Assembly (NCBI GenBank): GCA_964531285.1
Contig: CAZHDI010000010.1
Location: 1 to 59,702, forward strand
Reading direction: 5' to 3'
Length of the DNA: 59,702 nt
DNA from: an uncultured Alphaproteobacteria bacterium
GTDB taxonomy: Bacteria; Pseudomonadota; Alphaproteobacteria; JAJFIK01
Shown here one piece after another: positions 11,477-58,554 of the stretch; position 1 is the first letter of the stretch, and every line of letters starts with the position of its first letter. The notes below the pieces were generated by a model, which was not told the origin of the DNA, did not search any database, and worked only from the letters and a program-made list of their open reading frames with translations. The position numbers were made by a program, and so were the translations under genes.

Positions 11477-11632
11477 TGCATCCTCCTACGATCAGACTTG
11501 AGACCTGATCATGTCATCATATGACTGATTAACATCGCCTCTCGCGTGCCGGTACAAATTTCGAGACTTCTGCCAAATTAACCGATGGGAAAGCGTAATC
11601 CGGCAAGGTGGGCCGTGCCGATAGGAGGGCAG

Positions 11633-22313: not shown

Positions 22314-22315
22314 CA

Positions 22316-23644: not shown

Positions 23645-23656
23645 AGGATAGCGCGG

Positions 23657-45036: not shown

Positions 45037-45146
45037 GTCATGCCCGCGGACGCGGGCATCCAGCACCGCACGGCACTCACTCCAAGCGGAGACCTGAAAC
45101 CGTCGCCCCTGGATGCCGGATCTGCGCTGCGCTTGTCCGGCATGAC
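45037..45146. repeat. MITE/REP-like intergenic element made of two hairpin modules
   Basis: GTCATGCCCGCG-ga-CGCGGGCATCCAG (45037-45063) and CTGGATGCCGGA...TCCGGCATGAC (45109-45146). The ends are mutually inverted. Resembles the widespread GTCAT[TG]CCCGCG...GGGA/CATCCAG alphaproteobacterial repeat family. Confidence 0.6.
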
Positions 45147-45181
45147 GACCTCTGGAGAAAATGACGTTCTCATCAGTCTGA

Positions 45182-45207
45182 GACCCGGCCCAGCCGGGTC
45201 TTTTTTT
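45182..45207 (+). terminator. Rho-independent terminator
   Basis: GACCCGGC-cca-GCCGGGTC followed by TTTTTTT. Confidence 0.8.
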
Positions 45208-45291
45208 ATGGCGTTTGAGCCGTACCGGGAAAATTTGGGCCTGATCCGTCCATACGCCGTTACAGCGGATCCATTTGAAGGGAACAGGGCG

Positions 45292-46257
45292 ATGATGAAC
45301 GGGATTTGGGTGCGGTGCGGCGTTTTCGCCGTTGGCTTTGCCGGCCTGACACTGCTGGCGATGGCGACGGCCATGGCGTCGCACGGGCCGCGCGTCGAAG
45401 TGCAATACAAGAAAACGGATATCAAGGAGATGGTCCGGGCCGAGGCGATGCGTCAGGGCACCGTTCCGATCGCGCTCGCGCTCGGCGTGGCCCGGGTGGA
45501 ATCCAATTTCAATGCCAACGCGCTGAGCTCAGCCGGCGCCCGCGGGGTGATGCAGATCATGCCGCGGACCGCGCGCACCGAATTCGGGGTCGATCCGGAC
45601 GATCTTTGGGACCCGGCGTTGAATATCCGCCTGGGGATCAGATTTCTGTCCCGCCTCTATGCCATCTACGGCAACCGGTGGGACGCGGCCCTGTCGCATT
45701 ACAATGGCGGAACCCTGGACGGCGATCCCTTGACCGCGCCGCCCCATGGCTACACCCGGGGGTATGTCGCGTCCGTGCTCAAATGGGCCGACCGCTATGA
45801 GGCCGAAACCGGCGTCGCGCTCGCGGGCGGTGAGCGCTACAGCGATCCGGCGCCCGTGACCGCCACGTCCGATGCCGCGCTTGCCGCGCGGTTCCGGGCC
45901 CGGCTTGATGCGCAAAACGGCAGCGCGCCGCAGCCCGTGTCCGAAACACAGGCGCCGGAGCCCCACGTAATCGACGTCGGCTCCGCGGTGACCGCTGCCG
46001 GTGTTGCGCCGGTCTGGGCATACCGGTCGACTGAACCGCGGATGACCCTCAATGCGGGCCCGGCGGCGGCGCAGCCCGCCTATCGGACGGCGCAAGTGGC
46101 GCCGCAGAACGCACAGGATTGGCGCGCGGCGCAGCCGGTCTCTGCCGCCGCCGTCTATCCCAATGACCCGGGGTCGTCCTTCGATCGGGTCGTGCGCCGC
46201 GACATGGGTGAATTGCGCGCCCGTTTCCGGGGCGCTATTCGTAGGGATCGCAACTGA
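45292..46257 (+). CDS. lytic transglycosylase (SLT domain) with Ala/Pro-rich C-terminal tail
   Basis: Signal anchor. ALGVARVESNFNANALSSAGARGVMQIMPRTA with the catalytic Glu. The track ORF N-terminus (45040-45291) is a translation of the repeat element. Confidence 0.85.
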   Translation: MMNGIWVRCGVFAVGFAGLTLLAMATAMASHGPRVEVQYKKTDIKEMVRAEAMRQGTVPIALALGVARVESNFNANALSSAGARGVMQIMPRTARTEFGVDPDDLWDPALNIRLGIRFLSRLYAIYGNRWDAALSHYNGGTLDGDPLTAPPHGYTRGYVASVLKWADRYEAETGVALAGGERYSDPAPVTATSDAALAARFRARLDAQNGSAPQPVSETQAPEPHVIDVGSAVTAAGVAPVWAYRSTEPRMTLNAGPAAAQPAYRTAQVAPQNAQDWRAAQPVSAAAVYPNDPGSSFDRVVRRDMGELRARFRGAIRRDRN

Positions 46258-46305
46258 GTGGAGACGGCGCGGCGGCGCTTTGGGCTGCGCGGGGGGCAGC
46301 AGGAC

Positions 46306-48000
46306 ATGGCGGACACGAGACCCGGAGTGCGCAAGCTTGTCGTGCTGTCCTTTCCGAAGGGCGAATTGCTCGATGCCCTGAAGCATCTGGAGATCGCCAG
46401 GACCCATCCCGGCGATGCGCCGCTGGTCTTCAAGCCCAAGACCATCCTGCGGATCACCCAGTTGCTGGTCGGCGGACCGGTGGATTTCGGGGTCTTGCGT
46501 CTGTGCCACTTTCTTGTGGCGGTGGCGGCCACCGATGAGGATCTGGGCAGCTTCCCCATGATGTTCCGGGGATCGCCGCGCGATGCGCGGGCGATCTTCA
46601 CCCGCGAGGCCCTGCAGCCCGTGATGGGTGCCCGCGTCAGTGCCTCCAAAGCGGGCATTGAACTGTCTTATCCAGACGGCGATTTTACCATCGATTACAG
46701 CGCCGTGCCGGAACTGCTGGCTCTGGCCGAGGTGCTGGCCAACGGCCTCGGCTATCACACGATCGGCGGGCTGATCGACGCGGTGCATGAGAGCCCGGTG
46801 TCGATGCAGCGGGTGAAAGACATCGCTCAATCGGTGATGCCGGAGTTCCGCACCTGGATCGAGCGCAATATGGCGGTGTCGCGCCAGAGCCGTCAAAAGT
46901 TCAAGAAGATGATCGATTTTCTGGAACGGTTCCGAGGTGCCGATTTCAGTACGGACGATATCGACGATGAAGCCGTTCTTGAGCTGTGGAAAGAGCATGC
47001 CGGCTCGGACGACGATTTCAAATTGTTCGGTACCGCGCTCGACAGTCTTCTGTTTCTCATCCGGCAGGCCCATGAGGGCCAGCGGCGCCTTGAGGAAGAT
47101 CGAATGGGCGGCCTCGATTTCGCTTACGAGGATGGCCGCTACACGATTGATCCGGGCTATGATCCTGAAGCCGACGATTTCGATACGTTCGCATCGTGGT
47201 TTGTCTTTATCAACGGGTCCGATGACGACGATGCGGATTTCGTCGCGCCGTTGAAAGATGCTGGCAATATTCTGTTCGCCAAGCAATGGGCCTGGCTGGA
47301 CCCTTATTGGCCCGCGCCGGACGGTCCGCATCTGATGCGCTCTCGCCTGCGGGCCGACGCCTTCGGAGCGCTTCAGCGGCGAATCGTTCAGGCACTGCGC
47401 CGCAATGCCAGCCGTACAGAGATCTGCGGGCTGATCGGCGTGGCGCCGGAGGAAACATATGATGTGATCGCCGGCCGGGCGGAAAAGGCGCATTCGGATA
47501 TTTGGACCGCGGCCCACGCGATCCTCCATGTCCTGATCGCGAGCGAACATGAAAATGCGCTGCATCTTCTGTACACGCTGCGTCAGCGGGATGTCGATCT
47601 GCGCAGTTTTGTCCAGACACTCGTTCTCGAAGATCTGGTCGACACCGAGGCCCTGGCCCGGGACGGGCTCGACGCGCTGGCCGATGCCTTTTTCGAGGCC
47701 CTGCGGCGCGGAGATATCACGCCCGATGACGTAGCGACGGTCGTGCGTCAGTCGGAGGGCTTCTGGCGTAAGCTTAAAGATCGGGCTGGTTTCAAGCCCG
47801 CCGAGATTGAAGACCCCGTCCGTGTGGAAAGCTTTGCCGAGGTGACGGGCGATTTGACGAAGGCCGTGACCCGGATCGGATCCGTGCGCACCATGATCGA
47901 TCGCGCGTGCCCGGCGGGGGAGCGGGAAAATCTGTTCAAATCCGACTATCAGAGTTTTGCGGGGCTGTTCCTGCGTCTCTATGTGGACGGTATTGAGTAG
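46306..48000 (+). CDS. hypothetical cytoplasmic protein (~565 aa, acidic, no recognisable motifs)
   Basis: Protein-like composition versus an Arg-rich 678-aa antisense ORF. An alternative GTG start at 46258 abuts the SLT stop. No Walker A motif seen. Confidence 0.65.
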   Translation: MADTRPGVRKLVVLSFPKGELLDALKHLEIARTHPGDAPLVFKPKTILRITQLLVGGPVDFGVLRLCHFLVAVAATDEDLGSFPMMFRGSPRDARAIFTREALQPVMGARVSASKAGIELSYPDGDFTIDYSAVPELLALAEVLANGLGYHTIGGLIDAVHESPVSMQRVKDIAQSVMPEFRTWIERNMAVSRQSRQKFKKMIDFLERFRGADFSTDDIDDEAVLELWKEHAGSDDDFKLFGTALDSLLFLIRQAHEGQRRLEEDRMGGLDFAYEDGRYTIDPGYDPEADDFDTFASWFVFINGSDDDDADFVAPLKDAGNILFAKQWAWLDPYWPAPDGPHLMRSRLRADAFGALQRRIVQALRRNASRTEICGLIGVAPEETYDVIAGRAEKAHSDIWTAAHAILHVLIASEHENALHLLYTLRQRDVDLRSFVQTLVLEDLVDTEALARDGLDALADAFFEALRRGDITPDDVATVVRQSEGFWRKLKDRAGFKPAEIEDPVRVESFAEVTGDLTKAVTRIGSVRTMIDRACPAGERENLFKSDYQSFAGLFLRLYVDGIE

Positions 48001-48015
48001 ACTGGAGGCATTGAC

Positions 48016-48576
48016 ATGGCGGTTACGTGGAGCAAGTTGCCCCCCCGCACGAGAACCGAGATCGAACAGGCATTCGGTGTTATGGACACCGCGAAGACCC
48101 TACTGGACGAGGTGAGCGCGATGGATGCGCCGTCGCGTCCGGGTATTCGCGATCTCTATCACTTTATGCTCCGCCCGCAGAGCGATGTGTCGGGCCGGGT
48201 CCAGCGTGCGCTGCGCGACGATCCGCGGGTGCAGCGGGATTTCGACAGCCTTCTGGAGCGCAATGGCGCCTTTGCGTTTCCGCAAGCCGCGGCGGCCAGT
48301 TCGACCCAGATCGAGGAACGCACCGACGTGGAAGGGTTGGCGCGGCTTCGGCTCCTGCCGTCGGATTCTCTGCCCGACGAGGCCTATCTGCTGATCGACC
48401 TCGATCCGTCGAACGGGCTGGAGCCGAAATGCCTCTATGTGAGCGGGACCGATGTCGGCTACATTGCGATACCGCTTGCGCCGCCGGAAAATGATACGAT
48501 CAGCATGATCCTGTCGTCGTCCAGCGACGAGGCGCGCGCGCTGTGGGACCCCAAGGCGAAGGTCCATCTGAAATAG
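48016..48576 (+). CDS. hypothetical protein (186 aa)
   Basis: RBS GGAGG. 15 nt after the upstream stop. Protein-like composition. Confidence 0.6.
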   Translation: MAVTWSKLPPRTRTEIEQAFGVMDTAKTLLDEVSAMDAPSRPGIRDLYHFMLRPQSDVSGRVQRALRDDPRVQRDFDSLLERNGAFAFPQAAAASSTQIEERTDVEGLARLRLLPSDSLPDEAYLLIDLDPSNGLEPKCLYVSGTDVGYIAIPLAPPENDTISMILSSSSDEARALWDPKAKVHLK

Positions 48577-48588
48577 ACGGTCGAGGCC

Positions 48589-49977
48589 ATGACGGATATT
48601 GCGGTCTATATTCCGACAACGAACGGGGCGAGCCAGGTCTTGAGTCTGACCAAGATCGGGCTCGATGGGTCGGACCGTGATTATCCGTCAATGATCGGCG
48701 TCAATCACACGACCCGGTCGATTTCCGGTTTACGGATTCGCTATGACGAGTTCGTCCGCGAGCCGACGGGCGTTATCGAGCGGCATACCGATCACCGGTC
48801 GTACCGGGTCGATGTGTCGGGCGATATCAGCCATGGCGACAGCTGGCAGCTCGGCTTGTTCATTGCTCATGCCCTGGCCGAAAGCGGTGCGGTCGGTCTT
48901 CAAGGCGATCGCGGGGAAAGTCTGACTCTCAAAGGCGGTCTTCACACCCGGTCCCAGAAGGCATCGGAAACCGCGCAGCAGGGCGAGGCCGGGATCGTCG
49001 TCTGGGCGACCGGGATCGTAACCTCCGGCCTTCATGTGCGCAGCGTCGGAGAAATCCTCTGTAAACTCGATCAGTCAGCGGATTTGTTTGAGGTAGCGCG
49101 TAAAGCAGGCGCCCGTGTTGTGTTTGCTCTGCCGGCGGAAAATCGTACGCCGGAGCTAGAAGCTTATTTCAAGACCCTGTCCGGTCATTTCTCAGAGTGC
49201 GATGTGGTTTTTGTCGATGACGTTGTTTTTGGCGAGCCTGCCGGTGGTGCGCAAACCGCGGTGACGGCGATGCCGTCCGCGGCATCTCCGGGCGCGCGCC
49301 CCGCCGCTGGTACGTCAGGTTTACCGATCAAAGCTGGCGCCATGGTGGCTGCAGGCGTTGCCGGGGCCGCGGTTCTGGCTTATGCGCTTTCGGGGCCGGA
49401 TGAAACAACGATGCCGGCCGCTGACGATCAGGCGGCGGCGGCATTCACGTCATCTGACCCTGTGCCGGAGCCCGCCGGCGGTTGGTCCCCGGCTCAAGCC
49501 GGCCGTTTGATCACCCATGTGGATGTGGATTTGCGGTTTCGCGATGATGTCTCCTTAAGCCTGCCGTGGGCCGGGGCGCCGTCGGCCGTCCTGCCGAGGG
49601 ATGCCGGGCGGATCGTGACCCATCGGGCGGGTGTCGATGTTGTGCTGGAAAATCCGAGTACGGAGCGCCTGGATGTTGCCTATGCGATCATTGACCAGCA
49701 ATCGGGGCTTTTGGCGTCCGGCCATGGTCAAGTTCAGCCGGTTGGCCGCTGGTCCGTGCCTTTGGAGGGCGACATAGGCGATCTTGAGGAGCGGGCTGTT
49801 TGGCTCTTTGCGGCGCCTCACCTGGCCGTGGATTTTTCCGAGGTCTTGGGAGGCGGTCTGTCGGACGGGACGGTTCGCGATATCCGGCAGTGGGCGGAGG
49901 ATCGCAATGTGGCGAGCTTCCGACTCGGCCGCAACACGCTGGCTGGCGATGTTCCGGCGACATCGTATACACCTTGA
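48589..49977 (+). CDS. bitopic membrane protein with N-terminal Lon-protease-like (S16-like) domain
   Basis: VDVSGDISHGDSWQLGLFIAHALA and VVWATGIVTSGLHVRSVGEILCKL...ARKAGARVVFALPAEN parallel the Lon GPSAG...MTGEI..G.V..IGG..EK...A...G...V.IP..N pattern. One TM helix (AGAMVAAGVAGAAVLAYAL). Confidence 0.55.
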   Translation: MTDIAVYIPTTNGASQVLSLTKIGLDGSDRDYPSMIGVNHTTRSISGLRIRYDEFVREPTGVIERHTDHRSYRVDVSGDISHGDSWQLGLFIAHALAESGAVGLQGDRGESLTLKGGLHTRSQKASETAQQGEAGIVVWATGIVTSGLHVRSVGEILCKLDQSADLFEVARKAGARVVFALPAENRTPELEAYFKTLSGHFSECDVVFVDDVVFGEPAGGAQTAVTAMPSAASPGARPAAGTSGLPIKAGAMVAAGVAGAAVLAYALSGPDETTMPAADDQAAAAFTSSDPVPEPAGGWSPAQAGRLITHVDVDLRFRDDVSLSLPWAGAPSAVLPRDAGRIVTHRAGVDVVLENPSTERLDVAYAIIDQQSGLLASGHGQVQPVGRWSVPLEGDIGDLEERAVWLFAAPHLAVDFSEVLGGGLSDGTVRDIRQWAEDRNVASFRLGRNTLAGDVPATSYTP

Positions 49978-49992
49978 CGGGGAGGACATGAG

Positions 49993-50535
49993 ATGAGCCT
50001 GCATCGGATCACATTACGCGCTAGGGGCGGCACTCTTGCCGCGGCCGTCGCGGTGCTGGTTGTTGCCGCGCCGGCGGGTGCAACAACAAGCGAGCGCTAT
50101 GACCGGGAGGGTTACATCTCGGCGTTGACGCCCATTACCGGCGACGAGACGCCGGCGAAGGTCGATCTCTATCTGACCTTCGCGTTCGGGTCTGCCGCAC
50201 TCACCGGCGACGCCCGGAACCAGCTTGACGTGCTGGCCGAGGCGATCCTGTCGGACGGCTTGCAGAGGGCGCGCTTCGGTCTCTACGGGCATACCGATGC
50301 CGTCGGTTCGGCGGCTTATAACGAGGATCTCTCAGCCCGCCGCGCCCGCGCCGTGCGGGATTATCTTGTTGGCCAAGGGGTCACGCCAGACCGGCTCGAT
50401 AGCCGTGGTTTCGGGGAAACCCGGCCGAAAAATCTGCTGGACCCTGAAGCCGCCGAGAACCGCCGGGTCGAGGTTGTCAATCTGACACCGCCGCCGGCGC
50501 CCGCCGGGTCTATGACGCCCATTACCGGCGATTGA
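49993..50535 (+). CDS. OmpA/MotB-family peptidoglycan-binding protein
   Basis: Signal peptide. FAFGSAALT ... GHTDAVGSAAYNEDLSARRARAV ... NRRVEV. Confidence 0.9.
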   Translation: MSLHRITLRARGGTLAAAVAVLVVAAPAGATTSERYDREGYISALTPITGDETPAKVDLYLTFAFGSAALTGDARNQLDVLAEAILSDGLQRARFGLYGHTDAVGSAAYNEDLSARRARAVRDYLVGQGVTPDRLDSRGFGETRPKNLLDPEAAENRRVEVVNLTPPPAPAGSMTPITGD

Positions 50536-50716: not shown

Positions 50717-51169
50717 ATGACCAAGCTGAATGTCAATGGCCAGGCCATGGAGGTCGAGGCTGACGAAAACACGCCGTTGCTCTGGGTCCTCAGGGAACAG
50801 TTGGGCCTCACCGGAACGAAATATGGCTGCGGCATCGCACAATGCGGTGCCTGTACCGTTCATGTCGACGGAATGGCCGTCCGCGCCTGTGTTTATCCGC
50901 TGGCCGCGGTCGCCGAGGGCAGCCAAATCACGACTATCGAAGGATTGTCCGAAGACGGCAGCCATCCGGTACAGGAAGCGTGGGCGGAACTCGACATTCC
51001 ACAATGCGGCTATTGCCAGCCCGGTATGATCATGGCGGTGTCCGCTCTGCTTGCGGAAAATCCGAATGCGACCGATGACGATATCGACGCGCAGATTACC
51101 AATATCTGCCGCTGCGGGACCCTGGCTCGGGTCCGCAAGGGCATCCATTTGGCAAAAACCAAGATTTGA
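50717..51169 (+). CDS. (2Fe-2S)-binding small subunit of a xanthine-oxidase-family molybdo-hydroxylase (IorA-like)
   Basis: [16 protein letters not shown] and CGYCQPG cluster motifs. 150 aa. Confidence 0.9.
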
Positions 51170-51183
51170 GGCGGAGAGAACCT

Positions 51184-53400
51184 ATGGTCGATACACAGTC
51201 GATTTCCCGGCGCCGCTTCATGATCAGTGCCGGTGCGGCAGGCGCGGGCCTGACGATCACCCTTATGGGCGGATGCTCCGAAGCGCAGGACGGACCGGTT
51301 GAGACGGCCTCAGCACCGGAAGTGCCCGCGGGCCCGGCGCCGGAAGTCAATGCCTGGGTCCATATCGGAACGGACGATACGGTCACGATACGGATCGCCC
51401 GTTCGGAGATGGGGCAGGGCACGCTGACCGGTCTGGCCCAACTCGTCGCCGAAGAGCTTCAGTGCGATTGGGACAAGGTGGTCACCGAATATCCGACGCC
51501 GGGGCAAAATCTCGCTCGGGAGCGCGTGTGGGGCAGTTTCTCCACCGGCGGGAGCCGCGGCATCCGCGACAGCCATCAATATGTCCGCGAAGGCGGTGCT
51601 GCCGCGCGCATGATGCTGATCGAAGCAGCAGCGGCTGAATGGGATGTTCCGGCAACGGAGTGCTCAGCCAAGGACAGCATCATCACCCATGGGCCGTCCG
51701 GCCGCACAACGACCTATGGTGCGGTGGCCACGGCGGCGGCCTCCCTGGCTCCGCCGATTGAAATCACGCTCAAGGATCCGTCGGAATGGACCATCGCCGG
51801 TCAGCCGAAGGCGCGTCTCGACACGGCGGATAAGCTCACCGGCAAGCAGATCTATGGCGCGGATTTGACCCTACCGGGCATGCTGAATGCCAGCATCCGG
51901 CAGGCGCCAATGATCGGCGGCACCCTGGCGTCCTATGACGAAGCCGCCGTCCTGTCGATGCCGGGTGTCAAGAAAGTCGTTCCGGTCGGCGATAACGCGG
52001 TGGCCGTCGTGGCCGACACCTGGTGGCAGGCCAACACGGCACTCGATGCGCTGCCGATGGACTGGACGCCGGGCGAAGGATCGGATTATTCGAGTGCGGC
52101 CTTCGATGCTGAACTGGATGATGGTCTGACCGCTGACGAAACTTTCGTCGGCAACGCGATCGGTGATGTAAAGGCGGCCCTTGAAGGGTCGGCGCAGGTC
52201 GTTGAAGCGACCTATAATATGGCTCATCAGAACCACGCCTGCATGGAGCCGATGAATGCCACTGCGGTGTGGACGGAAGACAAGTGTGAGGTCTGGTGCC
52301 CCACGCAGAACGGTGAGGGGGCACTGGCGGCTGTCGCCGATGCGGCCGGTCTCGATATCCAGAACTGCGATGTGCACAAGATTCACCTGGGCGGCGGTTT
52401 CGGACGCCGGGGCATGAACGATTACGTCGCTCAGGCGGTGGAGATTGCCAAAGCCATGCCCGGCACGCCGGTCAAGCTTCTGTGGACCCGTGAAGAAGAC
52501 ATGGTGCACGGATTTGTGCACCCGACCACCAAGGCGCGCATGACCGGCGGTCTTGATGCGGAGGGTAATCCCACCGGGCTGCATCTTCGGATCTCGGGAC
52601 AATCCATCCTCGCCGCGTTGATGCCGCAGGCGCTGAACGATGGTATGGACTTCGCCACCTTTCAGGGCCTTCTGCCGTCCGGTGTCGATCCGCGGGTGGA
52701 AGATCAGACTCTGAAGCATACGTTCCCGACACTGCTGGTCGATCACGCCATGCGCAATCCTCCGGTTCGGCCGGGGTTCTGGCGCGGCGTCAATGCCAAT
52801 CAGAATGCCATCTATCTGGAATGTTTCGTCGATGAAATGGCCCATGCGGCGGGACGGGACCCGCTGGAGTTCCGGCTGTCGTTGATGGGCGATGCGCCGC
52901 AACTGGCCGCAGTGTTGCAGGCGGTCGCGGACAAGTCCGGTTGGGGCGCGGATGATGGCAAGGCGCGGGGTCTGTGTGCGTTCTATTCCTTCGGGGCTTA
53001 CACCGCCGCCTGTGCGGAAGTGACGGTCGATGACAATGGCCACTTGAAGATGGACCGCATCGTCGCGGCTACGGACCCGGGGATGGCCGTCAACCCGCAA
53101 CAGATCGAGGCGCAGGTCGAAGGGTCCTTCGTGTACGGATTGTCGGCGATGCTGTTCGGCGAGATCACGGTTGAGAATGGTGAGGTTCAGCAGCGCAATT
53201 TCGACACGTTCGACTCGCTGCGTCTGGCGGACATGCCGGAAGTCGAGACCATCGTCATGCCGTCGGGCGGCTTCTGGGGCGGGGTTGGTGAGCCGACCAT
53301 CGCCGTGGCGGCACCGGCCGTGCTCAATGCGATCTTTGCCGCGACCGGCAAGCGCATCCGGCAATTGCCGATCAAGGATCAGGATTTGCGACCGGCATGA
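51184..53400 (+). CDS. molybdopterin-binding large subunit (IorB / membrane-bound aldehyde dehydrogenase-like), Tat-exported
   Basis: Twin-arginine signal SRRRFMISAGAAGAGL. Sequence resembles xanthine dehydrogenase family MoCo subunits. ATG at 51184 is preceded by GGAGAG. Confidence 0.85.
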   Translation: MVDTQSISRRRFMISAGAAGAGLTITLMGGCSEAQDGPVETASAPEVPAGPAPEVNAWVHIGTDDTVTIRIARSEMGQGTLTGLAQLVAEELQCDWDKVVTEYPTPGQNLARERVWGSFSTGGSRGIRDSHQYVREGGAAARMMLIEAAAAEWDVPATECSAKDSIITHGPSGRTTTYGAVATAAASLAPPIEITLKDPSEWTIAGQPKARLDTADKLTGKQIYGADLTLPGMLNASIRQAPMIGGTLASYDEAAVLSMPGVKKVVPVGDNAVAVVADTWWQANTALDALPMDWTPGEGSDYSSAAFDAELDDGLTADETFVGNAIGDVKAALEGSAQVVEATYNMAHQNHACMEPMNATAVWTEDKCEVWCPTQNGEGALAAVADAAGLDIQNCDVHKIHLGGGFGRRGMNDYVAQAVEIAKAMPGTPVKLLWTREEDMVHGFVHPTTKARMTGGLDAEGNPTGLHLRISGQSILAALMPQALNDGMDFATFQGLLPSGVDPRVEDQTLKHTFPTLLVDHAMRNPPVRPGFWRGVNANQNAIYLECFVDEMAHAAGRDPLEFRLSLMGDAPQLAAVLQAVADKSGWGADDGKARGLCAFYSFGAYTAACAEVTVDDNGHLKMDRIVAATDPGMAVNPQQIEAQVEGSFVYGLSAMLFGEITVENGEVQQRNFDTFDSLRLADMPEVETIVMPSGGFWGGVGEPTIAVAAPAVLNAIFAATGKRIRQLPIKDQDLRPA

Positions 53401-53747
53401 CCTCACACCGTATCCGACCGGTTTCGGGATGGGCGCTGGCAGCCGTTCTGGTTGCCGGCGTTGCCGTTTCGGGATGCCGGTCGGATGCGGCGGACACAAC
53501 GGATGCCAGTGGTCCGGGGCTCGGCTCGCCGGCCCTCCTGGCGGCGTCCTGTTCGGGGTGTCACGGGACGGACGGAGCTGCCATTCCGGTTCTGGATGAT
53601 CTGACGGCGGACATGATTGCCGCCTCCTTAAAGACCTATCGGGACGACGCTGCTGGTAGCACGGTCATGCACCGCCTGACGCGTGGCTACAGCGATGCCG
53701 AGATCGATGCCATTGCCGCGTATCTCGCGGCGGAAGGCGGTGGCTGA
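53397..53747 (+). CDS. monohaem c-type cytochrome (flavocytochrome c cytochrome subunit-like, FccA/SoxE type)
   Basis: Single CSGCH haem motif and a signal or possible lipobox (VSGC). The start overlaps the Mo-subunit stop (ATGA). Confidence 0.75.
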   Translation: MTSHRIRPVSGWALAAVLVAGVAVSGCRSDAADTTDASGPGLGSPALLAASCSGCHGTDGAAIPVLDDLTADMIAASLKTYRDDAAGSTVMHRLTRGYSDAEIDAIAAYLAAEGGG

Positions 53748-53748
53748 C

Positions 53749-55020
53749 ATGACCTTCGTCACGCGGCGGGCACTGATGGCTGGACTGTCGGCGGCCGGCT
53801 TGACCGTCGCCGCGCCGGCTATCGTGCGGGGTGCGACCAGTGCGCGCGTCGCCGTGATCGGCGGCGGGTTCGGCGGGGCGATCGCAGCGCGCATGGTCAA
53901 GCGTCTGATGCCGTCGGCGAGCGTGACTCTGATCGAGCCGAACCGGACTTATACGGCCTGTCCGTTTTCCAATCTTGTCATCGGCGGTTTGCGCGATCTG
54001 GCGGATCAAGCGTTTTCCTACGCGGCTTTGGCCGACGAGGGGATCGCGCTCATTGCACAAGCCGCTCGCGATGTGGACCCGGCGGCCCATACGATCACCT
54101 TGGCCGATGGCGCCGCTCTTGGCTATGACCGCCTCATCCTGTCGCCGGGTATCGATATTCGCTGGGGAGCCTTGGCGGGATATGATCCGTCGGCGGCCGA
54201 TGTAATGCCTCATGCCTGGAAGGCCGGCCCGCAGACCCAGTTGCTGCGCCGTCAGCTTGAAGCCATGGATGACGGCGGGCTCGTGGTGATGACTGCGCCG
54301 GCGGCGCCCTTTCGCTGCCCGCCGGGGCCGTATGAGCGCGCGAGTTTGATTGCTCACTATCTGAAGACGTACAAGCCGCGCGCCAAGCTCCTTGTTCTGG
54401 ATGCCAAGGACCAATTCTCTAAACAACCCCTGTTTCTTGAGGCGTGGGCTGCTCATTATCCGGATCATTTGGAATGGCGCGGTGCGTCCGATGACGGGCG
54501 GGTCTCCCGTGTCGATGGCGGTGCGATGACCGTTGACACCGATTTCGAAACGATCCAGGGCGATGTGATCAACGTCATTCCGCCGCAGCGCGCCGCGCTC
54601 ATCGCGGACCGGGCCGGTGTTGCGGATGCCACCGGATGGTGCCCTGTCGATGCTGTTGCATTTGAGTCGACCCTTCAGCCGCATGTTCACGTGATTGGAG
54701 ACGCCTCCATCGCCGCGCCCATGCCGAAATCCGCCTTCTCGGCCAATCTGCAAGGCAAGCTGTGTGCCATCCATGTCGTCCGTTTGCTGACGGGGCGTGA
54801 GCCCGAGCCGACGGTGCTTGCCAACACTTGTTACTCCTATATCACGCCCGAGGAAGCCGTATCGATTACCGGGGTTTACAGCAATGAAGGCGGGCGGTTT
54901 GCCAATGTGCGCGGCGCGGGCGGTCTGAGTCCCCTTGGGGCCGGTGCTGACCTCCGGGCCGCAGAAGCGGGGCAGGCGGACGATTGGTTCCGCACCATCA
55001 CACGCGAGACATTCGGATGA
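53749..55020 (+). CDS. flavocytochrome c sulfide dehydrogenase flavoprotein subunit (FccB/SoxF-like)
   Basis: Tat signal TRRALMAG. FAD fold VAVIGGGFGGAIAA. ATG lies 1 nt after the upstream TGA. Confidence 0.85.
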   Translation: MTFVTRRALMAGLSAAGLTVAAPAIVRGATSARVAVIGGGFGGAIAARMVKRLMPSASVTLIEPNRTYTACPFSNLVIGGLRDLADQAFSYAALADEGIALIAQAARDVDPAAHTITLADGAALGYDRLILSPGIDIRWGALAGYDPSAADVMPHAWKAGPQTQLLRRQLEAMDDGGLVVMTAPAAPFRCPPGPYERASLIAHYLKTYKPRAKLLVLDAKDQFSKQPLFLEAWAAHYPDHLEWRGASDDGRVSRVDGGAMTVDTDFETIQGDVINVIPPQRAALIADRAGVADATGWCPVDAVAFESTLQPHVHVIGDASIAAPMPKSAFSANLQGKLCAIHVVRLLTGREPEPTVLANTCYSYITPEEAVSITGVYSNEGGRFANVRGAGGLSPLGAGADLRAAEAGQADDWFRTITRETFG

Positions 55021-55466
55021 TGGTCCGGGGGGCAGCCGGGCTACTTATGGTCGGGCTGATAGCGGCCTGCACCGATGCCGCACCGCTTGTTGATCCGGCT
55101 CAGATCGACGGCGATGCCATCCCAGCCGCGCTGAGCGGCGTCTCGGGAGATGCGGCCATCGGCAAAGCCGTCTTCGTTGAGCGTGAGCAAGGGCACTGTG
55201 TCCTATGCCATCAAATCGACGGCCTGGAGGCGCCCTTTCAAGGGAATGTCGGTCCTGCTTTGACAGGACTTGGCAGCCGGTTAAACAAGGGGCAGATCCG
55301 CCTGCGGATTGTCAATGCTTCTGTGCTTAATCCGTCGACGATTATGCCGCCCTACTATCGTATCCGCGGCCTGAACCAAGTGGCCGATGAGCATCGGGGC
55401 GCGCCAGTTCTGACGGCGGATCAGATCGAACACTTGGTTGCGTATCTGTCATCATTGAAAGGGTAG
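55017..55466 (+). CDS. soxX: sulfur-oxidation c-type cytochrome SoxX-like
   Basis: Single CVLCH haem motif and a lipoprotein-like signal (IAAC). ATGA overlap with the upstream gene. Confidence 0.75.
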   Translation: MMVRGAAGLLMVGLIAACTDAAPLVDPAQIDGDAIPAALSGVSGDAAIGKAVFVEREQGHCVLCHQIDGLEAPFQGNVGPALTGLGSRLNKGQIRLRIVNASVLNPSTIMPPYYRIRGLNQVADEHRGAPVLTADQIEHLVAYLSSLKG

Positions 55467-55470
55467 GTTC

Positions 55471-55941
55471 ATGCCGGATCGGATCCATCCGATGCTGACG
55501 CGGCGCACGGTTTGCGCTGGCCTTGCCGTCGCTGCCATTGCCGCGCCGATTGCACGGGCCCGAGCGATCGAGATGCCGGAAAAGACGCGCGCCGCGATTC
55601 TTGAGTTATTCGGTGACCGGCCCCTTGAGGAGGCACGCGTCACGATCACCATGCCGCCGATTGCCGAGAACGGATTTTCCGTACCCGTTGCGGTCGATGT
55701 GGACAGTCCCATGAGTGAAGCGGACCATGTGCGCCGAATTGCGCTGGTCGCCGAACGCAATCCCATTGCGACGCTGTTTCAGTGTCACCTTGGGCCTCGA
55801 GCCGGTCGGGCCAGTGTCGCGACAAGGGTGCGCCTTGCAGGAACACAGACGATCCGCGCGATTGCTGAAACCAACGATGGGCGGCTTTGGGTTGCCGGCA
55901 CGGAAGTTGTCGTGACGCTTGCCGCCTGTGTGGTGTTGTAG
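55471..55941 (+). CDS. SoxY-related carrier protein with non-canonical C-terminal arm (…LAACVVL)
   Basis: Tat signal TRRTVCAGLA. PPIAENGFSVPVAV SoxY core. The C-terminus lacks GGCGG and ends in AACVVL. Confidence 0.75.
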   Translation: MPDRIHPMLTRRTVCAGLAVAAIAAPIARARAIEMPEKTRAAILELFGDRPLEEARVTITMPPIAENGFSVPVAVDVDSPMSEADHVRRIALVAERNPIATLFQCHLGPRAGRASVATRVRLAGTQTIRAIAETNDGRLWVAGTEVVVTLAACVVL

Positions 55942-55950
55942 GGGACGGTC

Positions 55951-56274
55951 ATGGCCAATACCATTCGTATCCTGGTACCCGAAACCGCCGCGGCGGGCGA
56001 GGTTATCGAACTCAAGGCGTTGATCCGCCATCCGATGGAAAGCGGATTTCGGCGCGGCTCGCGTGGTGAGGTGATCCCGCGCGACATCATCACGGACTTT
56101 GTGTGCCTTTATGATGGTGAAGAAATCTTCCGCGCGGACTTCTTCCCGGCCGTTGCGGCCAATCCCTTTCTGACCTTCTATACTGTCGCCATGAACAGCG
56201 GCACGCTGGAGTTTCGCTGGACCGATCAAAATGGTGAGACCTGGTCGCAGACGGCGGAGTTGATCGTTACATGA
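55951..56274 (+). CDS. soxZ: SoxZ-like carrier complex subunit
   Basis: 107 aa. GEVIELKALIRHPMESGFRR is typical of SoxZ. Confidence 0.8.
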   Translation: MANTIRILVPETAAAGEVIELKALIRHPMESGFRRGSRGEVIPRDIITDFVCLYDGEEIFRADFFPAVAANPFLTFYTVAMNSGTLEFRWTDQNGETWSQTAELIVT

Positions 56275-57062
56275 TCCGGAAGGCGGTCATGGGGATGCTG
56301 TTTGGCTTCCTGGCGGCGTGCAGCCCGCAATCGGATCCGGTTGAGCCCGCTTCTCTCGATGCGGATGAAAAGCGATCCGGCTACAGCTTTTTGACGCCCG
56401 ACACCCAGGCTTTGCAAGACGACGATTTTGCCAATCCTGGTTATCTCTGGGTGGATCGCGGTGAGGCTTTGTTCCATGAAGCATCGGCAGGCGGGCCGTC
56501 TTGCGGGTCCTGCCATGAAGGGGAGACTGGCCATCTGAAGGGTGTCGCGGCGCGCTATCCGGCCATGGATAGGCAGAGCGATACATTGGTCAATCTTGAA
56601 GGCCGGATCAATTTGTGCCGGACACGGCATCAGAATGCGCCGGCGCTGGACTATGAGAGCGATGGGCTTCTCGCACTCACCGCCTATGTGGCATCCTTAT
56701 CACGCGGGATGCCGCTTTCGGTTTCCGTCAGTGAGCAGACCAGATCGTTCTACACTCAAGGCGAGGTGTATTTCTTCACGCGGCGCGGCCAGCTCAATCT
56801 CGCATGCAGTCAGTGTCACAACGAAAATTGGGGTAAGCGACTGCGCGGCGACACAATCAGCCAAGGGCATGGAACGGGCTTTCCGGCCTACCGGCTGGAA
56901 TGGCAAACCCTAGGGTCCCTGCACCGCCGGCTTTACGATTGCGATGCCGGGGTTCGGGCGGAACCAAAGGACCTGGGGTCGCCCGTTTATACGGCCCTGG
57001 AATATTACCTTGCCGTCCGGGCATCGGGCCTCACGGTCGAGGCGCCCGGTGTGCGGCGGTAG
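56271..57062 (+). CDS. soxA: dihaem sulfur-oxidation cytochrome SoxA-like
   Basis: Two haem motifs (CGSCH, CSQCH) and an RRLYDCDAGVRAEP block carrying the conserved Cys. ATGA overlap with soxZ. Confidence 0.8.
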   Translation: MIRKAVMGMLFGFLAACSPQSDPVEPASLDADEKRSGYSFLTPDTQALQDDDFANPGYLWVDRGEALFHEASAGGPSCGSCHEGETGHLKGVAARYPAMDRQSDTLVNLEGRINLCRTRHQNAPALDYESDGLLALTAYVASLSRGMPLSVSVSEQTRSFYTQGEVYFFTRRGQLNLACSQCHNENWGKRLRGDTISQGHGTGFPAYRLEWQTLGSLHRRLYDCDAGVRAEPKDLGSPVYTALEYYLAVRASGLTVEAPGVRR

Positions 57063-57081: not shown

Positions 57082-58554
57082 TTATTCCCAGGGATTGATC
57101 GGCGGCAGAATGGTCGGCAATGGCTGCTCGAGGCTATCCGTCTGGCGCGCGGGTCTGAAAGCCGCCAGCGGTTCCTCGGTTCGTTGCTGCTCCAGCCAAA
57201 AGACCCCGTCAAAGGGTTCGCTGTTCCCCCGTGTACCGATGAAATCCAAATCGCCGTCCCGATCGAGATCGCGGGCAATGAATTTGTCGAACATGCCGCG
57301 CGTGCGGCGGCTGATGTCATGGCGCACCCAGGGTTGGCCCGGTTCGCCGGTATTCTGGAACCAGCCCAGGCGGCCAAGCGCATCATTCCGGCCGATATCC
57401 GCGCCGTCGCGATCACGGGGACCGCGGCTGTAACTCCCGGCAAAGACATCGCCGTCGCCATCGCCATCGATGTCGGCGGCAATCAGTCCAACGACCATAT
57501 CGGGAAAAAACGTGCCGATTGGGTGTGCCGTCCATGTCTCGCCGAGATTCGCCGGTTGCTCCAACCAGGCAATACCGCCCGTGGTGGCCGCAACAATATC
57601 CAGCCGGCCGTCACCATTGAGATCGTCGTAAGCCAGATTGAAGCCGCCCGCCTTGACACGGTCAATCGTTATCGGGTGCTCCGTAAAGGCAAGTGCATTC
57701 GGCGTACTGACATTCTCAAAAAGGACGATCCGATTATCGACCCGAAGACCTCCAATGACATCGAGATCGCCATCGCCATCAAGGTCCACCGGTTCGGCAT
57801 TCTGCGGGATTCGATACCGGCCGAGTACGTGCTCCGACCAGCTTGCCTGCGCCAGGGGATCACCAGTGATCTTGAAAACGGAAATGGCAGTCGGCTTTGC
57901 CGTCGCCCGGTCCGGGTTTTGCTTTCCCTTGTTCGCCGCCGACACCTCAGGGCGGCCGTCCCCGTCAAAATCGGCGAAAAATACGCGGATCCAGGATCCG
58001 CGATCCTGCGTGATCGCTGGGATGATGTGGTCCCAAGGACGTGTGCGACTATCCGCTCCCGGATTCTGAAAGTAGGCCAGATGCGCCAACTCCGACGCGA
58101 TGATGATATCCGGCCAGCCATCGCCATTCAGATCCGCAATCGACGCGTCCTCTGGTGCGGCGGCGAGCGGGCCGTCCGCAAGCGTCACATTCACCCACTT
58201 GGTAGGGTCATCAGTCGCGAAGGCAATCCGGACATGGCCGTTCGGGACCCCATCATAGACGGTGTCCGACTCATGGACCGAGACGATATCCTCTCGGCCG
58301 TCGCCGTCGAGATCGGCCATAACAAGGCCATCACTGCCGCTAATGGCCTCCCCGCTCAAGGCCACATCGTCGATTACGTGCTCCTGCCAGGAGATGAAAT
58401 GGCCATCGTCTGCTATTGCGGACGTCGGCGTATCGGCGACCGTGGGAGCGTGATCCTCGGTGGCCATGAGCGGGAATATCCAAGCACTGCCAACAAAAAT
58501 GGCCAGGAACCCAGCGATCAGAGGCATTCTGTTGCGCCAAAACCGTCCGGTCAT
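57082..58554 (-). CDS. FG-GAP/VCBS-repeat beta-propeller protein (secreted or membrane-anchored)
   Basis: N-terminal TM/signal. Seven D-x-[DN]-x-D-G-x-x-D blocks (DLDGDGREDIV, DLNGDGWPDII, DFDGDGRPEV, DLDGDGDLDVI, DLNGDGRLDIV, DIDGDGDGDVF, DLDRDGDLDFI). Confidence 0.85.
   Translation of the reverse strand: MTGRFWRNRMPLIAGFLAIFVGSAWIFPLMATEDHAPTVADTPTSAIADDGHFISWQEHVIDDVALSGEAISGSDGLVMADLDGDGREDIVSVHESDTVYDGVPNGHVRIAFATDDPTKWVNVTLADGPLAAAPEDASIADLNGDGWPDIIIASELAHLAYFQNPGADSRTRPWDHIIPAITQDRGSWIRVFFADFDGDGRPEVSAANKGKQNPDRATAKPTAISVFKITGDPLAQASWSEHVLGRYRIPQNAEPVDLDGDGDLDVIGGLRVDNRIVLFENVSTPNALAFTEHPITIDRVKAGGFNLAYDDLNGDGRLDIVAATTGGIAWLEQPANLGETWTAHPIGTFFPDMVVGLIAADIDGDGDGDVFAGSYSRGPRDRDGADIGRNDALGRLGWFQNTGEPGQPWVRHDISRRTRGMFDKFIARDLDRDGDLDFIGTRGNSEPFDGVFWLEQQRTEEPLAAFRPARQTDSLEQPLPTILPPINPWE

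What the first reader, a model, noticed from the sequence alone, without database searches (positions are those of the whole stretch)
55471..55941. SoxY-like carrier lacking the GGCGG swinging arm; C-terminus is ...VVVTLAACVVL
The SoxY core is recognisable (Tat signal, PPIAENGFSVPVAV). The invariant C-terminal G-G-C-G-G peptide that carries the sulfur adducts is replaced by A-A-C followed by three hydrophobic residues. I recall an NCBI family name, SoxY-related AACIE arm protein, for such variants. To my knowledge their chemistry has not been worked out. A bulkier, non-glycine arm implies different partner enzymes, consistent with the absence of SoxB and SoxCD here.
Basis: partly seen in the sequence, partly recalled or inferred. 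Interest (0 to 1): 0.55.

Follow-up and report, generated by a model that had tools for sequence, protein, structure and literature searches.

The report
Variant sulfur-carrier protein with molybdenum-enzyme partner
This is a real, widely conserved variant of the sulfur-carrier protein SoxY whose flexible glycine arm is replaced by an Ala-Ala-Cys arm; it always sits beside a xanthine-oxidase-type molybdenum enzyme instead of the usual Sox enzymes, and nobody yet knows what the set of genes does.

Summary
ORF 55471-55941 (+) encodes a 156-aa, Tat-signalled SoxY-fold protein ending VVVTLAACVVL. The tail is not an error: 70 of the 120 closest homologues end AACVVL.

It belongs to the database family "SoxY-related AACIE arm protein" (TIGR04487). 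That model is its best hit at 152.9 bits, but the score is below the curated cut-off of 172. The window protein lies in a subclade with short, non-acidic, mostly hydrophobic tails, and this subclade straddles the cut-off.

The gene is the sixth of eight tightly coupled genes:
- 2Fe-2S subunit
- xanthine-oxidase-family Mo subunit
- flavocytochrome c sulfide dehydrogenase (cytochrome and flavoprotein)
- SoxX
- SoxY'
- SoxZ
- SoxA

This order recurs in essentially all of the 80 best genome loci. At least 597 stretches in species-representative genomes encode relatives. The Mo enzyme plus SoxY'Z is the constant core.

A SoxB query finds nothing in the window or within ±10 kb in any locus. The same gene set was reported in Starkeya novella in 2013 as a poorly expressed "second sox cluster" of unknown function.

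Best reading: the carrier of a self-contained periplasmic module in which the Mo hydroxylase, not SoxB/SoxCD, processes the tethered substrate. The chemistry is unproven. It is a known kind with an unsolved function.

The parts
50717..51169 (+). Small [2Fe-2S] subunit of a xanthine-oxidase-family molybdoenzyme (IorA-like); first gene of the operon. It has no signal peptide, so it is presumably exported with the large subunit.
   Evidence: Pfam Fer2_2 at 2.2e-26 and Fer2. Only sub-threshold NCBIfam hits to XDH/aldehyde-DH iron-sulfur subunits. Conserved at this position in the related loci. Its stop overlaps the next gene's start by 4 nt.
51166..53400 (+). Large molybdopterin subunit (IorB-like, 744 aa from the TTG start). 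It carries a twin-arginine signal (SRRRFMISAG) and a possible lipobox (LMGGC).
   Evidence: Pfam MoCoBD_1 and MoCoBD_2. No NCBIfam equivalog reaches its cut-off. The closest solved structure is 8GY3_C, large subunit of aldehyde dehydrogenase (E 1.4e-80), and the GVGEP motif holding the family's catalytic Glu is present (the identification of that Glu rests on established xanthine-oxidase knowledge). It lies next to SoxY'Z in every related locus long enough to show it, except L050.
53397..53747 (+). Monohaem cytochrome c (CSGCH), the cytochrome subunit of flavocytochrome c sulfide dehydrogenase (FccA/SoxE-like). It has a probable lipoprotein signal (AVSGC).
   Evidence: Best PDB match is 5N1T_B, the cytochrome subunit of the FCSD entry (E 2.4e-11), followed by 1FCD_C. 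In the related loci it was never detected without the flavoprotein.
53749..55020 (+). Flavoprotein subunit of flavocytochrome c sulfide dehydrogenase (FccB/SoxF-like), with a Tat signal (MTFVTRRALMAG).
   Evidence: Pfam FCSD_central at 1.4e-48 and FCSD-flav_bind at 3.9e-21. 5N1T_A matches at E 4.3e-130. The cysteine motifs YTACPFSN, FRCPPGPYERA and TCYSY all align.
55017..55466 (+). SoxX monohaem cytochrome (CVLCH). The likely start is the ATG at 55017, which overlaps the FccB stop. Probable lipoprotein signal (LIAAC).
   Evidence: TIGR04485 SoxX scores 81.2 bits against a cut-off of 61. 1H31_B matches at E 5.2e-20.
55471..55941 (+). SoxY' carrier, the finding itself: 156 aa with a Tat signal and a SoxY beta-sandwich.
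55918..55938 (+). C-terminal arm LAACVVL (residues 150-156). The carrier Cys153 is encoded at 55927-55929.
   Evidence: Cys153 aligns with the carrier Cys of solved SoxY. The model gives this stretch no structure and low pLDDT. The VT[LI]AAC[VIL] motif is conserved across the family.
55951..56274 (+). SoxZ partner subunit (107 aa, no signal peptide).
   Evidence: TIGR04490 SoxZ_true scores 92.1 bits against a cut-off of 76. Pfam SoxZ at 6.7e-29.
56271..57062 (+). Dihaem SoxA (CGSCH and CSQCH) with a probable lipoprotein signal (FLAAC).
   Evidence: TIGR04484 scores 224 bits against a cut-off of 110. 1H31_A matches at E 1.6e-52. Both cysteines that ligate the haems in Rhodovulum SoxA align (INLCRT and LYDCDAG) (the assignment of these cysteines as ligands is from memory of that structure).

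Best explanation
The ORF encodes a functional, non-canonical SoxY carrier subunit (SoxY') of the Ala-Ala-Cys-arm lineage. With SoxZ it forms the carrier of a self-contained, periplasmic eight-gene module that is distinct from the thiosulfate-oxidising Sox system.

Proposed working, with each step marked as shown or inferred:
1. All parts are exported, by Tat, Sec or lipoprotein signals. This is read from the sequences.
2. Flavocytochrome c sulfide dehydrogenase oxidises sulfide to sulfane-level sulfur. This is inferred from close homology and conserved catalytic cysteines.
3. SoxXA oxidatively couples a sulfur substrate to the thiolate of Cys153 on the free C-terminal arm. This is inferred from homology and from conservation of both haem-ligating cysteines.
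4. The loaded arm, stiffer and more hydrophobic than GGCGG, is delivered into the substrate funnel of the xanthine-oxidase-family molybdoenzyme. That enzyme oxidises the tethered group with water and passes electrons through its 2Fe-2S subunit to c-type cytochromes. In this scheme the product, most simply sulfite, leaves without SoxB, and the Mo hydroxylase stands in for SoxCD/SoxB. This step is inferred from synteny only.

The nature of the tethered substrate is not established.
For: The protein is real and conserved:
- SoxY fold, homologous Cys and free arm.
- The tail is shared by the nearest homologues.
- 1942 clusters at 50% identity match at E<=1e-3, with xAC arms dominating the best 150.

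It lies nearer the AAC lineage than canonical SoxY:
- TIGR04487 scores 152.9 bits against 101.3 for TIGR04488, and the same ordering holds in ten relatives.
- The 25 nearest sequences, measured on the core with the arm removed, all lack GGC arms.

The genes form an operon. Eight genes have gaps or overlaps of -4, -4, 1, -4, 4, 9 and -4 nt.

Synteny:
- The same order occurs in Hyphomonas, a 4.1-Mb JGI contig and Rhodobiaceae, and in essentially all of the 80 best loci of species-representative genomes. These span Alpha-, Beta- and Gammaproteobacteria, Rokubacteria, Methylomirabilis and a Sulfotelmatobacter MAG.
- Some loci lack FccAB, and some also lack SoxXA. Where enough flank is present, the Mo enzyme and SoxY'Z stay together in all but one locus, L050.

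Other neighbours:
- No other neighbour is universal.
- No SoxB was found in 1.5 Mb of window plus loci.

Component quality:
- FccB matches 5N1T_A at 4e-130.
- The cytochrome matches 5N1T_B.
- SoxA, SoxX and SoxZ pass their curated cut-offs.
- The Mo subunit keeps the GEP catalytic motif.

Literature:
- S. novella has the same gene set without SoxB/CD. It is barely expressed on thiosulfate, whereas the canonical cluster is induced (PMC3797975).
- SAR324 bins carry FCSD plus SoxYZ without other sox genes (PMC4782131).
Against: - No experiment bears on the Mo-enzyme step. Xanthine-oxidase-family enzymes are known to hydroxylate carbon centres, not sulfur.
- The closest solved relative of the Mo subunit is an aldehyde dehydrogenase, which points as much to a carbon substrate.
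- Without SoxB, a route for releasing a sulfonate from the carrier is hypothetical.
- The S. novella authors suggested the cluster may have no functional significance under the conditions tested.
- I could not test whether genomes carrying the module also carry SoxB elsewhere.
- Phylogenetic support is weak. Bootstrap values on a 145-column alignment are low.
- I did not verify that S. novella SoxY2 has an AAC arm.
Confidence: 0.5

Rival explanations
1. It is an alternative thiosulfate/sulfide carrier, an isoform. SoxXA2 and SoxY'Z load sulfur, and SoxB and SoxCD encoded elsewhere in the genome finish the job. The neighbouring Mo enzyme is functionally unrelated or only loosely linked.
For: SoxA, SoxX and SoxZ pass the curated 'true' Sox cut-offs. 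S. novella carries both a canonical cluster and this one. The isoenzyme idea is discussed in the literature.
Against: The Mo enzyme is the constant neighbour across phyla, even in loci that have lost SoxXA and FccAB. No SoxB lies within ±10 kb in 80 species. The arm is exactly the part that must thread into SoxB. Replacing its glycines with Ala and an aliphatic residue should hinder this; that inference rests on the 4UWQ SoxB-SoxYZ complex and is recalled, not tested here. The S. novella cluster is not induced by thiosulfate. In B. diazoefficiens only soxY1 is needed for thiosulfate oxidation, although the arm type of its soxY2 was not verified.
Confidence: 0.17
2. The carrier tethers a carbon-containing substrate: an aldehyde as a thiohemiacetal, or an organic thiol as a mixed disulfide. 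The Mo enzyme then oxidises the carbon centre, as its aldehyde-dehydrogenase relatives do, and the sulfur enzymes handle the released or co-substrate sulfur.
For: The closest solved relative of the Mo subunit is the large subunit of an aldehyde dehydrogenase (8GY3_C). Another SoxYZ-like carrier family (TIGR04557) is associated with periplasmic quinoprotein alcohol dehydrogenases, which make aldehydes (family name; ped-cluster literature listed). Three Burkholderiales loci that have only the Mo enzyme and SoxY'Z are followed by a TctC binding protein and a TauD-family dioxygenase.
Against: Three of the four partner functions (FccAB, SoxXA, SoxYZ) are specific to inorganic sulfur and closely resemble characterised enzymes. 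No aldehyde-generating enzyme is conserved nearby.
Confidence: 0.15
3. The carrier is a periplasmic sulfur donor that installs or repairs the terminal Mo=S sulfido ligand of the exported xanthine-oxidase-family enzyme. FccAB and SoxXA generate the persulfide on Cys153.
For: Xanthine-oxidase-family enzymes need a sulfido ligand that can be lost (established knowledge; review listed). The Mo enzyme and the carrier form the constant pair. Eukaryotic Moco sulfurases use a protein persulfide (my own knowledge).
Against: Six genes is extravagant for a repair task. XdhC/MocA maturation genes sit beside the module in about 14 loci and would already supply sulfurated cofactor in the cytoplasm. Other periplasmic enzymes of this family manage without such a system.
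Confidence: 0.05
4. It is an artefact: a frameshift, a sequencing error, or a decaying pseudogene of canonical soxY.
For: None found.
Against: An identical AACVVL end occurs in 70 of the 120 nearest homologues from independent assemblies. VTLAAC is conserved in 80 species. The operon is intact and its genes are translationally coupled. The fold prediction is confident.
Confidence: 0.01

Closest known systems
SoxY-related AACIE arm protein (NCBIfam TIGR04487, SoxY_para_1)
   Same: It is the best-scoring model (152.9 bits). The Ala-Ala-Cys arm is shared, with an aliphatic residue after the Cys. The eight-gene neighbourhood is the same as in members that score 202-216 bits, and in the Neorhizobium galegae plasmid locus that PGAP labels with this name.
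   Different: The score is below the curated cut-off of 172. The tail is a short, non-acidic VVL instead of I/L-E/D plus extra residues. It belongs to a subclade (window protein plus seven tested relatives) that scores 153-186 bits, so it is named inconsistently in public records: some members are called 'thiosulfate oxidation carrier protein SoxY'.
Canonical SoxY of the thiosulfate-oxidising Sox system (TIGR04488; structures 2OX5, 2NNC, 4UWQ)
   Same: Same fold, Tat export, SoxZ partner, adjacent SoxXA, and a carrier Cys at the homologous position on a free C-terminal arm.
   Different: There is no GGCGG. The score of 101.3 is below the cut-off of 125. SoxB and SoxCD are not in the neighbourhood. 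The gene is instead linked to a xanthine-oxidase-family Mo enzyme. For contrast, the canonical copy on the M. trichosporium OB3b plasmid ends GGCGG and is followed by soxZ-soxB.
'Second sox gene cluster' of Starkeya novella (soxX2Y2Z2A2F2, Snov_1982-1977, plus the xanthine-oxidase-family enzyme Snov_1975/1976; Kappler et al. 2013, PMC3797975)
   Same: [quoted passage not shown]
   Different: The arm sequence of Snov SoxY2 could not be checked here. That cluster sits in a genome with a full canonical Sox system, whereas the rest of this window's genome is unknown.
Quinoprotein dehydrogenase-associated SoxYZ-like carrier (TIGR04557)
   Same: It is another SoxY/Z-derived carrier recruited to a non-Sox periplasmic oxidoreductase. 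The window protein gives a partial hit of 80.5 bits.
   Different: That family is a fused Y-Z protein next to PQQ dehydrogenases. Here Y and Z are separate genes, the score is far below the cut-off of 140, and no PQQ enzyme is nearby.
SoxCD sulfane dehydrogenase
   Same: By analogy only: it is a molybdoenzyme with a redox partner that acts on sulfur tethered to SoxY.
   Different: SoxC belongs to the sulfite-oxidase family. [quoted passage not shown]

Membership tests
Canonical SoxY (TIGR04488, SoxY_true_GGCGG) | SoxY fold / Pfam PF13501 | tested here: met
   118.9 bits. Foldseek top hits are SoxY structures.
Canonical SoxY (TIGR04488, SoxY_true_GGCGG) | C-terminal GGCGG swinging arm | tested here: not met
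   The protein ends LAACVVL. The Cys aligns with the carrier Cys, but the flanking glycines are Ala-Ala and Val-Val.
Canonical SoxY (TIGR04488, SoxY_true_GGCGG) | HMM score at or above the curated cut-off (125 bits) | tested here: not met
   101.3 bits.
Canonical SoxY (TIGR04488, SoxY_true_GGCGG) | Encoded with SoxB (and usually SoxCD) | tested here: not met
   A SoxB query by tblastn finds nothing in the window or in 85 related loci. No SoxB or SoxC Pfam family was found in the window. The rest of the genome was not available.
SoxY-related AACIE arm protein (TIGR04487) | Best-scoring NCBIfam model | tested here: met
   152.9 bits, against 101.3 for the next model.
SoxY-related AACIE arm protein (TIGR04487) | Score at or above the curated cut-off (172 bits) | tested here: not met
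   152.9 bits. Seven tested relatives of the same subclade score 161-186, and soil-type members score 202-216.
SoxY-related AACIE arm protein (TIGR04487) | Ala-Ala-Cys followed by an aliphatic residue in place of GGCGG | tested here: met
   The arm reads VTLAACV.
SoxY-related AACIE arm protein (TIGR04487) | Acidic residue two positions after the Cys (the 'E' of AACIE) | tested here: not met
   The tail is VVL. Non-acidic tails (VVL, VIL, VIG, IIG) characterise this subclade.
SoxY-related AACIE arm protein (TIGR04487) | Same gene neighbourhood as members above the cut-off | tested here: met
   The order 2Fe-2S, Mo subunit, cyt c, FCSD, SoxX, SoxY', SoxZ, SoxA occurs in the loci of Reyranella soli (L041). 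Methylobacterium platani (L055) has the same order up to SoxZ, but SoxA was not detected there. Both SoxY' proteins score 202-216 bits. The PGAP-named Neorhizobium galegae locus also has this order, but there the Mo subunit and cytochrome c are not in the listed gene table.
Quinoprotein dehydrogenase-associated SoxYZ-like carrier (TIGR04557) | Fused SoxY-SoxZ protein scoring at least 140 bits, next to a PQQ dehydrogenase | tested here: not met
   80.5 bits over the Y half only. Y and Z are separate genes. No PQQ enzyme was found among the neighbours.
Starkeya-type 'second sox cluster' (Mo enzyme + SoxF + SoxXA + SoxYZ, no SoxB/CD) | Gene content as published | tested here: met
   All components are present and adjacent in the window, matching the description in PMC3797975.
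Starkeya-type 'second sox cluster' (Mo enzyme + SoxF + SoxXA + SoxYZ, no SoxB/CD) | SoxY2 of S. novella carries the same AAC arm | not testable with these tools
   The Snov sequence could not be retrieved. A second homologue search returned only unnamed soil-metagenome proteins.

The most novel reading that the evidence does not exclude
A xanthine-oxidase-family molybdenum hydroxylase takes a protein-tethered substrate: sulfur carried on the AAC arm of SoxY'Z. It oxidises sulfane sulfur with water, giving a third, SoxB- and SoxCD-independent route of periplasmic sulfur oxidation present in hundreds of bacterial species. This would be the first sulfur-centred, carrier-dependent reaction known for this enzyme family.
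Probability: 0.25. Interest if true: 0.8.

Novelty: new member of a known kind. Interest (0 to 1): 0.42.

Why it matters
The module is common. At least 597 matched stretches in species-representative genomes encode relatives, across marine and soil Proteobacteria and beyond. It is often annotated as ordinary "thiosulfate oxidation carrier protein SoxY", so it may be counted as thiosulfate-oxidation potential in metagenome surveys. One large SoxY survey, by contrast, discarded every sequence without a GGC motif, so this lineage has fallen between the two treatments.

Its constant pairing with a xanthine-oxidase-type molybdoenzyme is a concrete, testable lead to the function of the "duplicate sox clusters", which has been open since at least 2013. 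If the Mo enzyme really works on the carrier arm, that would extend the known chemistry of the enzyme family.

Tried and rejected
- **Frameshift or error hiding GGCGG:** rejected by tail conservation.
- **CVVL as a CaaX-like prenylation box:** rejected. The protein is Tat-exported, and soil relatives in the same operon end CLEDLT or CVEG.
- **Other conserved partner genes within ±10 kb:** I clustered 3174 flank ORFs from 82 loci. The largest cluster occurs in only 19 loci (ABC transporter). Molybdenum-cofactor biosynthesis and XdhC-MocA genes are adjacent in only about 14 Hyphomonadaceae-type loci. Not all of the top 30 clusters were annotated.
- **Literature:** 'AACIE' gives no relevant paper. 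SoxY with GGCGG, SoxYZ with xanthine-oxidase-family terms, and soxX2/soxA2/soxZ2/soxF2 add nothing beyond the S. novella paper. Masuda 2010 on B. japonicum soxY2 is not held.
- **Linking the family to named model organisms:** a second homologue search returned only unnamed metagenome proteins.
- **Neighbour-joining tree on the core without the arm:** it places the window protein among xAC-arm sequences, but bootstrap support is weak. The first bootstrap run was flawed by a distance overflow and was repeated.
Full report
**1. The observation**

The ORF at 55471-55941 (+) is present exactly as described: 156 codons from ATG to TAG. It encodes a twin-arginine signal (MLTRRTV...ARARA), the PPIAENGFSVPVAV core and the C-terminus VVVTLAACVVL.

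It is a SoxY-domain protein. Pfam PF13501 scores 118.9 bits. Against solved structures it aligns end to end with SoxY of Thermus (4UWQ_B) and Paracoccus (2OX5_Y), and Cys153 falls on the carrier cysteine: VTLAAC against VTVGGC / VTIGGC.

An AlphaFold2 model built on 30 homologues has mean pLDDT 87.4. Its best Foldseek matches are the SoxY structures. The last seven residues have no secondary structure and low confidence, as expected for a free arm.

The tail is not an artefact. Among the 120 nearest database homologues, 70 end AACVVL and almost all the others end AAC followed by two or three residues. The identical protein also occurs on an independent assembly of run SRR6462991.

**2. Family placement**

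NCBIfam ranks TIGR04487, 'SoxY-related AACIE arm protein', first at 152.9 bits. The canonical model TIGR04488 scores 101.3. Neither reaches its curated cut-off (172 and 125).

Scoring ten relatives explains this:
- Soil-type proteins ending AACVEG, AACLEDLT or AACIEG score 202-216 bits.
- The window's subclade, with non-acidic tails (VVL, VIG) or ILE, scores 153-186 bits and straddles the cut-off.

This explains why public records call some members 'AACIE arm protein' and others 'thiosulfate oxidation carrier protein SoxY'.

Across 80 species genomes the conserved motif is V-T-[LI]-A-A-C plus one aliphatic residue. What follows varies.

A search of 1.84 billion representatives found 1942 clusters at E<=1e-3. 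In the best 150, xAC arms predominate, and canonical GGCGG proteins appear only from about rank 42.

A neighbour-joining tree on the core with the arm removed puts the window protein in a 12-member group. Eleven of the twelve have short non-acidic tails, and the group is nested among xAC-arm sequences. All 25 nearest sequences lack GGC arms. Bootstrap support on this short alignment is weak, so I treat the tree as consistent with the HMM result rather than as independent proof.

**3. Context: an eight-gene operon**

The gene is the sixth of eight co-directional genes. The gaps or overlaps between them are -4, -4, 1, -4, 4, 9 and -4 nt once SoxX is started at the ATG that overlaps the preceding stop.

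| Gene | Coordinates | Key evidence |
|---|---|---|
| 2Fe-2S subunit | 50717-51169 | Pfam Fer2_2, Fer2 |
| Xanthine-oxidase-family Mo subunit, Tat signal | 51166-53400 | Closest solved relative is the large subunit of the aldehyde dehydrogenase 8GY3_C, E 1.4e-80; the GVGEP motif that holds the family's catalytic Glu is kept |
| Monohaem cytochrome c | 53397-53747 | Best PDB match is the cytochrome subunit of flavocytochrome c sulfide dehydrogenase, 5N1T_B |
| FCSD flavoprotein | 53749-55020 | 5N1T_A at E 4e-130; all cysteine motifs align |
| SoxX | 55017-55466 | Passes curated cut-off |
| SoxY' | 55471-55941 | See sections 1 and 2 |
| SoxZ | 55951-56274 | Passes curated cut-off |
| Dihaem SoxA | 56271-57062 | Passes curated cut-off; both haem-ligating cysteines aligned to 1H31_A |

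Every component has an export signal or a partner that has one. Several (SoxX, SoxA, the cytochrome and possibly the Mo subunit) have lipobox-like signals. These were read from the sequence and not run through a predictor.

**4. The operon is conserved**

Look-ups of three homologues gave the same eight genes in the same order: a Hyphomonas chromosome, a 4.1-Mb JGI contig and Rhodobiaceae contigs. Molybdenum-cofactor biosynthesis and XdhC-MocA maturation genes were often alongside.

The 80 best loci come from Hyphomonadaceae, Parvibaculaceae, Halieaceae, Reyranella, Methylobacterium, Methylocella, Burkholderiales, Rokubacteria, Methylomirabilis and others.

tblastn with the window's eight proteins shows the same order in essentially all loci that are long enough. 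Exceptions:
- A handful lack the sulfide dehydrogenase pair.
- Five show only the Mo enzyme plus SoxY'Z.
- One locus with full flanks, L050, lacks a detectable Mo enzyme.

Otherwise the Mo enzyme and the carrier are the constant pair.

Clustering 3174 flank ORFs found no other universal neighbour.

A real SoxB, taken from the Methylosinus trichosporium OB3b plasmid where a GGCGG-ended soxY is followed by soxZ-soxB, gives no tblastn hit in the window or in any of the 85 loci, 1.5 Mb in all. The rest of the window also shows no SoxB- or SoxC-type Pfam family.

**5. What is already known**

- The family name exists in NCBIfam. PGAP applies it, for example on a Neorhizobium galegae plasmid that carries the same module.
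[quoted passage not shown] It lacks SoxB and SoxCD and shares an operon with a xanthine-oxidase-family Mo enzyme. Its SoxAX2 and SoxYZ2 were undetectable, and its transcripts were very low on glucose, methanol or thiosulfate. They left its role open (PMC3797975).
- A SAR324 study noted FCSD next to SoxYZ without other sox genes, and separately noted an 'isoquinoline 1-oxidoreductase', without connecting the two (PMC4782131).
- In B. diazoefficiens only soxY1 is needed for thiosulfate oxidation (PMC5748708). I could not check the arm of soxY2.
- A large SoxY survey discarded all sequences without a GGC motif (PMC11237559).
- No paper in the library mentions the AACIE arm.

**6. Mechanism**

These points are shown by sequence and comparison:
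- an exported SoxY'Z carrier with a free AAC-arm cysteine;
- a complete SoxXA with intact active-site ligands;
- a bona fide flavocytochrome c sulfide dehydrogenase;
- a xanthine-oxidase-family enzyme with its catalytic glutamate motif;
- all encoded as one unit, with the Mo enzyme and the carrier staying together in all but one informative locus.

Inferred: the carrier's loaded arm is the Mo enzyme's substrate. The Mo enzyme, rather than SoxB/SoxCD, oxidises and releases the tethered group. The Ala-Ala and aliphatic substitutions adapt the arm to that enzyme's funnel and unfit it for SoxB. Sulfur is the simplest cargo, because three of the four partner functions are sulfur enzymes.

The weakest point is that this enzyme family is known for carbon-centre hydroxylation, and its nearest solved relative is an aldehyde dehydrogenase. 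A carbon-containing cargo therefore remains a serious rival. Two further rivals are the isoform idea (SoxB elsewhere finishes the job) and a sulfido-ligand repair role. Both are less likely, for the reasons given under the rival explanations.

**7. Verdict**

The protein is a new member, on the low-scoring edge, of a catalogued but functionally unsolved family. The module was first noted in 2013. What this analysis adds:
- the breadth and near-constancy of the pairing between Mo enzyme and carrier;
- the local absence of SoxB in 80 species;
- the definition of the conserved arm motif;
- recognition of a subclade with short non-acidic tails that current models name inconsistently.

Interest is moderate. 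It is not a new kind of system, but it is a widespread one whose chemistry is open and now directly testable.

Noticed in passing
window 20472-28578 (+): A family-2 glycosyltransferase gene is followed by four tandem paralogues of DUF3131 (22310-23644, 23657-25153, 25092-26546, 26413-28578), with Pfam E-values from 1e-102 to 1e-146. Such a four-fold tandem expansion of an uncharacterised family is unusual.
   Followed up: no
window 45040-50535 (+): Directly upstream of the operon lie five co-directional genes: an SLT lytic-transglycosylase-domain protein, three proteins of 580, 186 and 462 aa with no Pfam or NCBIfam hit, and an OmpA-family protein. This may be an envelope-spanning apparatus. 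It is not conserved next to the module in other genomes.
   Followed up: partly
window 57082-58554 (-): A 490-aa FG-GAP/VCBS-repeat protein converges on the end of soxA. It has no NCBIfam match and is not among the flank genes that recur in related loci.
   Followed up: partly
L053 7777-9779, L056 10820-12862, L076 10804-12899: Three Burkholderiales-type loci have only the Mo enzyme and SoxY'Z, with no SoxXA and no sulfide dehydrogenase. In all three the pair is followed by a TctC-family binding protein and a TauD/TfdA-family dioxygenase. This may hint at an organosulfonate or aldehyde connection.
   Followed up: partly
L087 (Methylosinus trichosporium OB3b plasmid pOB3b1) 6236-9430: A canonical soxY ending GGCGG appears to be truncated at its 5' end by an IS6 transposase and is unannotated. 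It is followed by soxZ, soxB and two DsrE-family genes.
   Followed up: partly
L086 (Neorhizobium galegae plasmid pNgVX) 2665-5207: In this plasmid-borne copy of the module, the Mo-subunit region has no listed gene. Its longest open frame is 657 aa, against about 730-745 aa elsewhere, so the gene may be disrupted. The carrier there ends VTLPACAEN yet is named 'AACIE arm protein'.
   Followed up: partly
public annotations of homologues (P0008, P0016, P0024, P0030 against P0015, P0040): Proteins of the same subclade, in several cases with the same AACVVL tail, are named either 'thiosulfate oxidation carrier protein SoxY' or 'SoxY-related AACIE arm protein'. Where tested, this tracks whether they clear the 172-bit cut-off. 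Surveys that count SoxY by name will mix the two lineages.
   Followed up: yes
window, ORFs of at least 150 aa outside the sox region: Two sulfatases, a TauD-family dioxygenase and a sulfotransferase are present, along with glycogen genes (starch synthase 11585-13114, phosphorylase 13221-15704) and an RTX-repeat protein (9584-11476, minus strand). The sulfatase, TauD and sulfotransferase ORFs were not mapped to coordinates.
   Followed up: no
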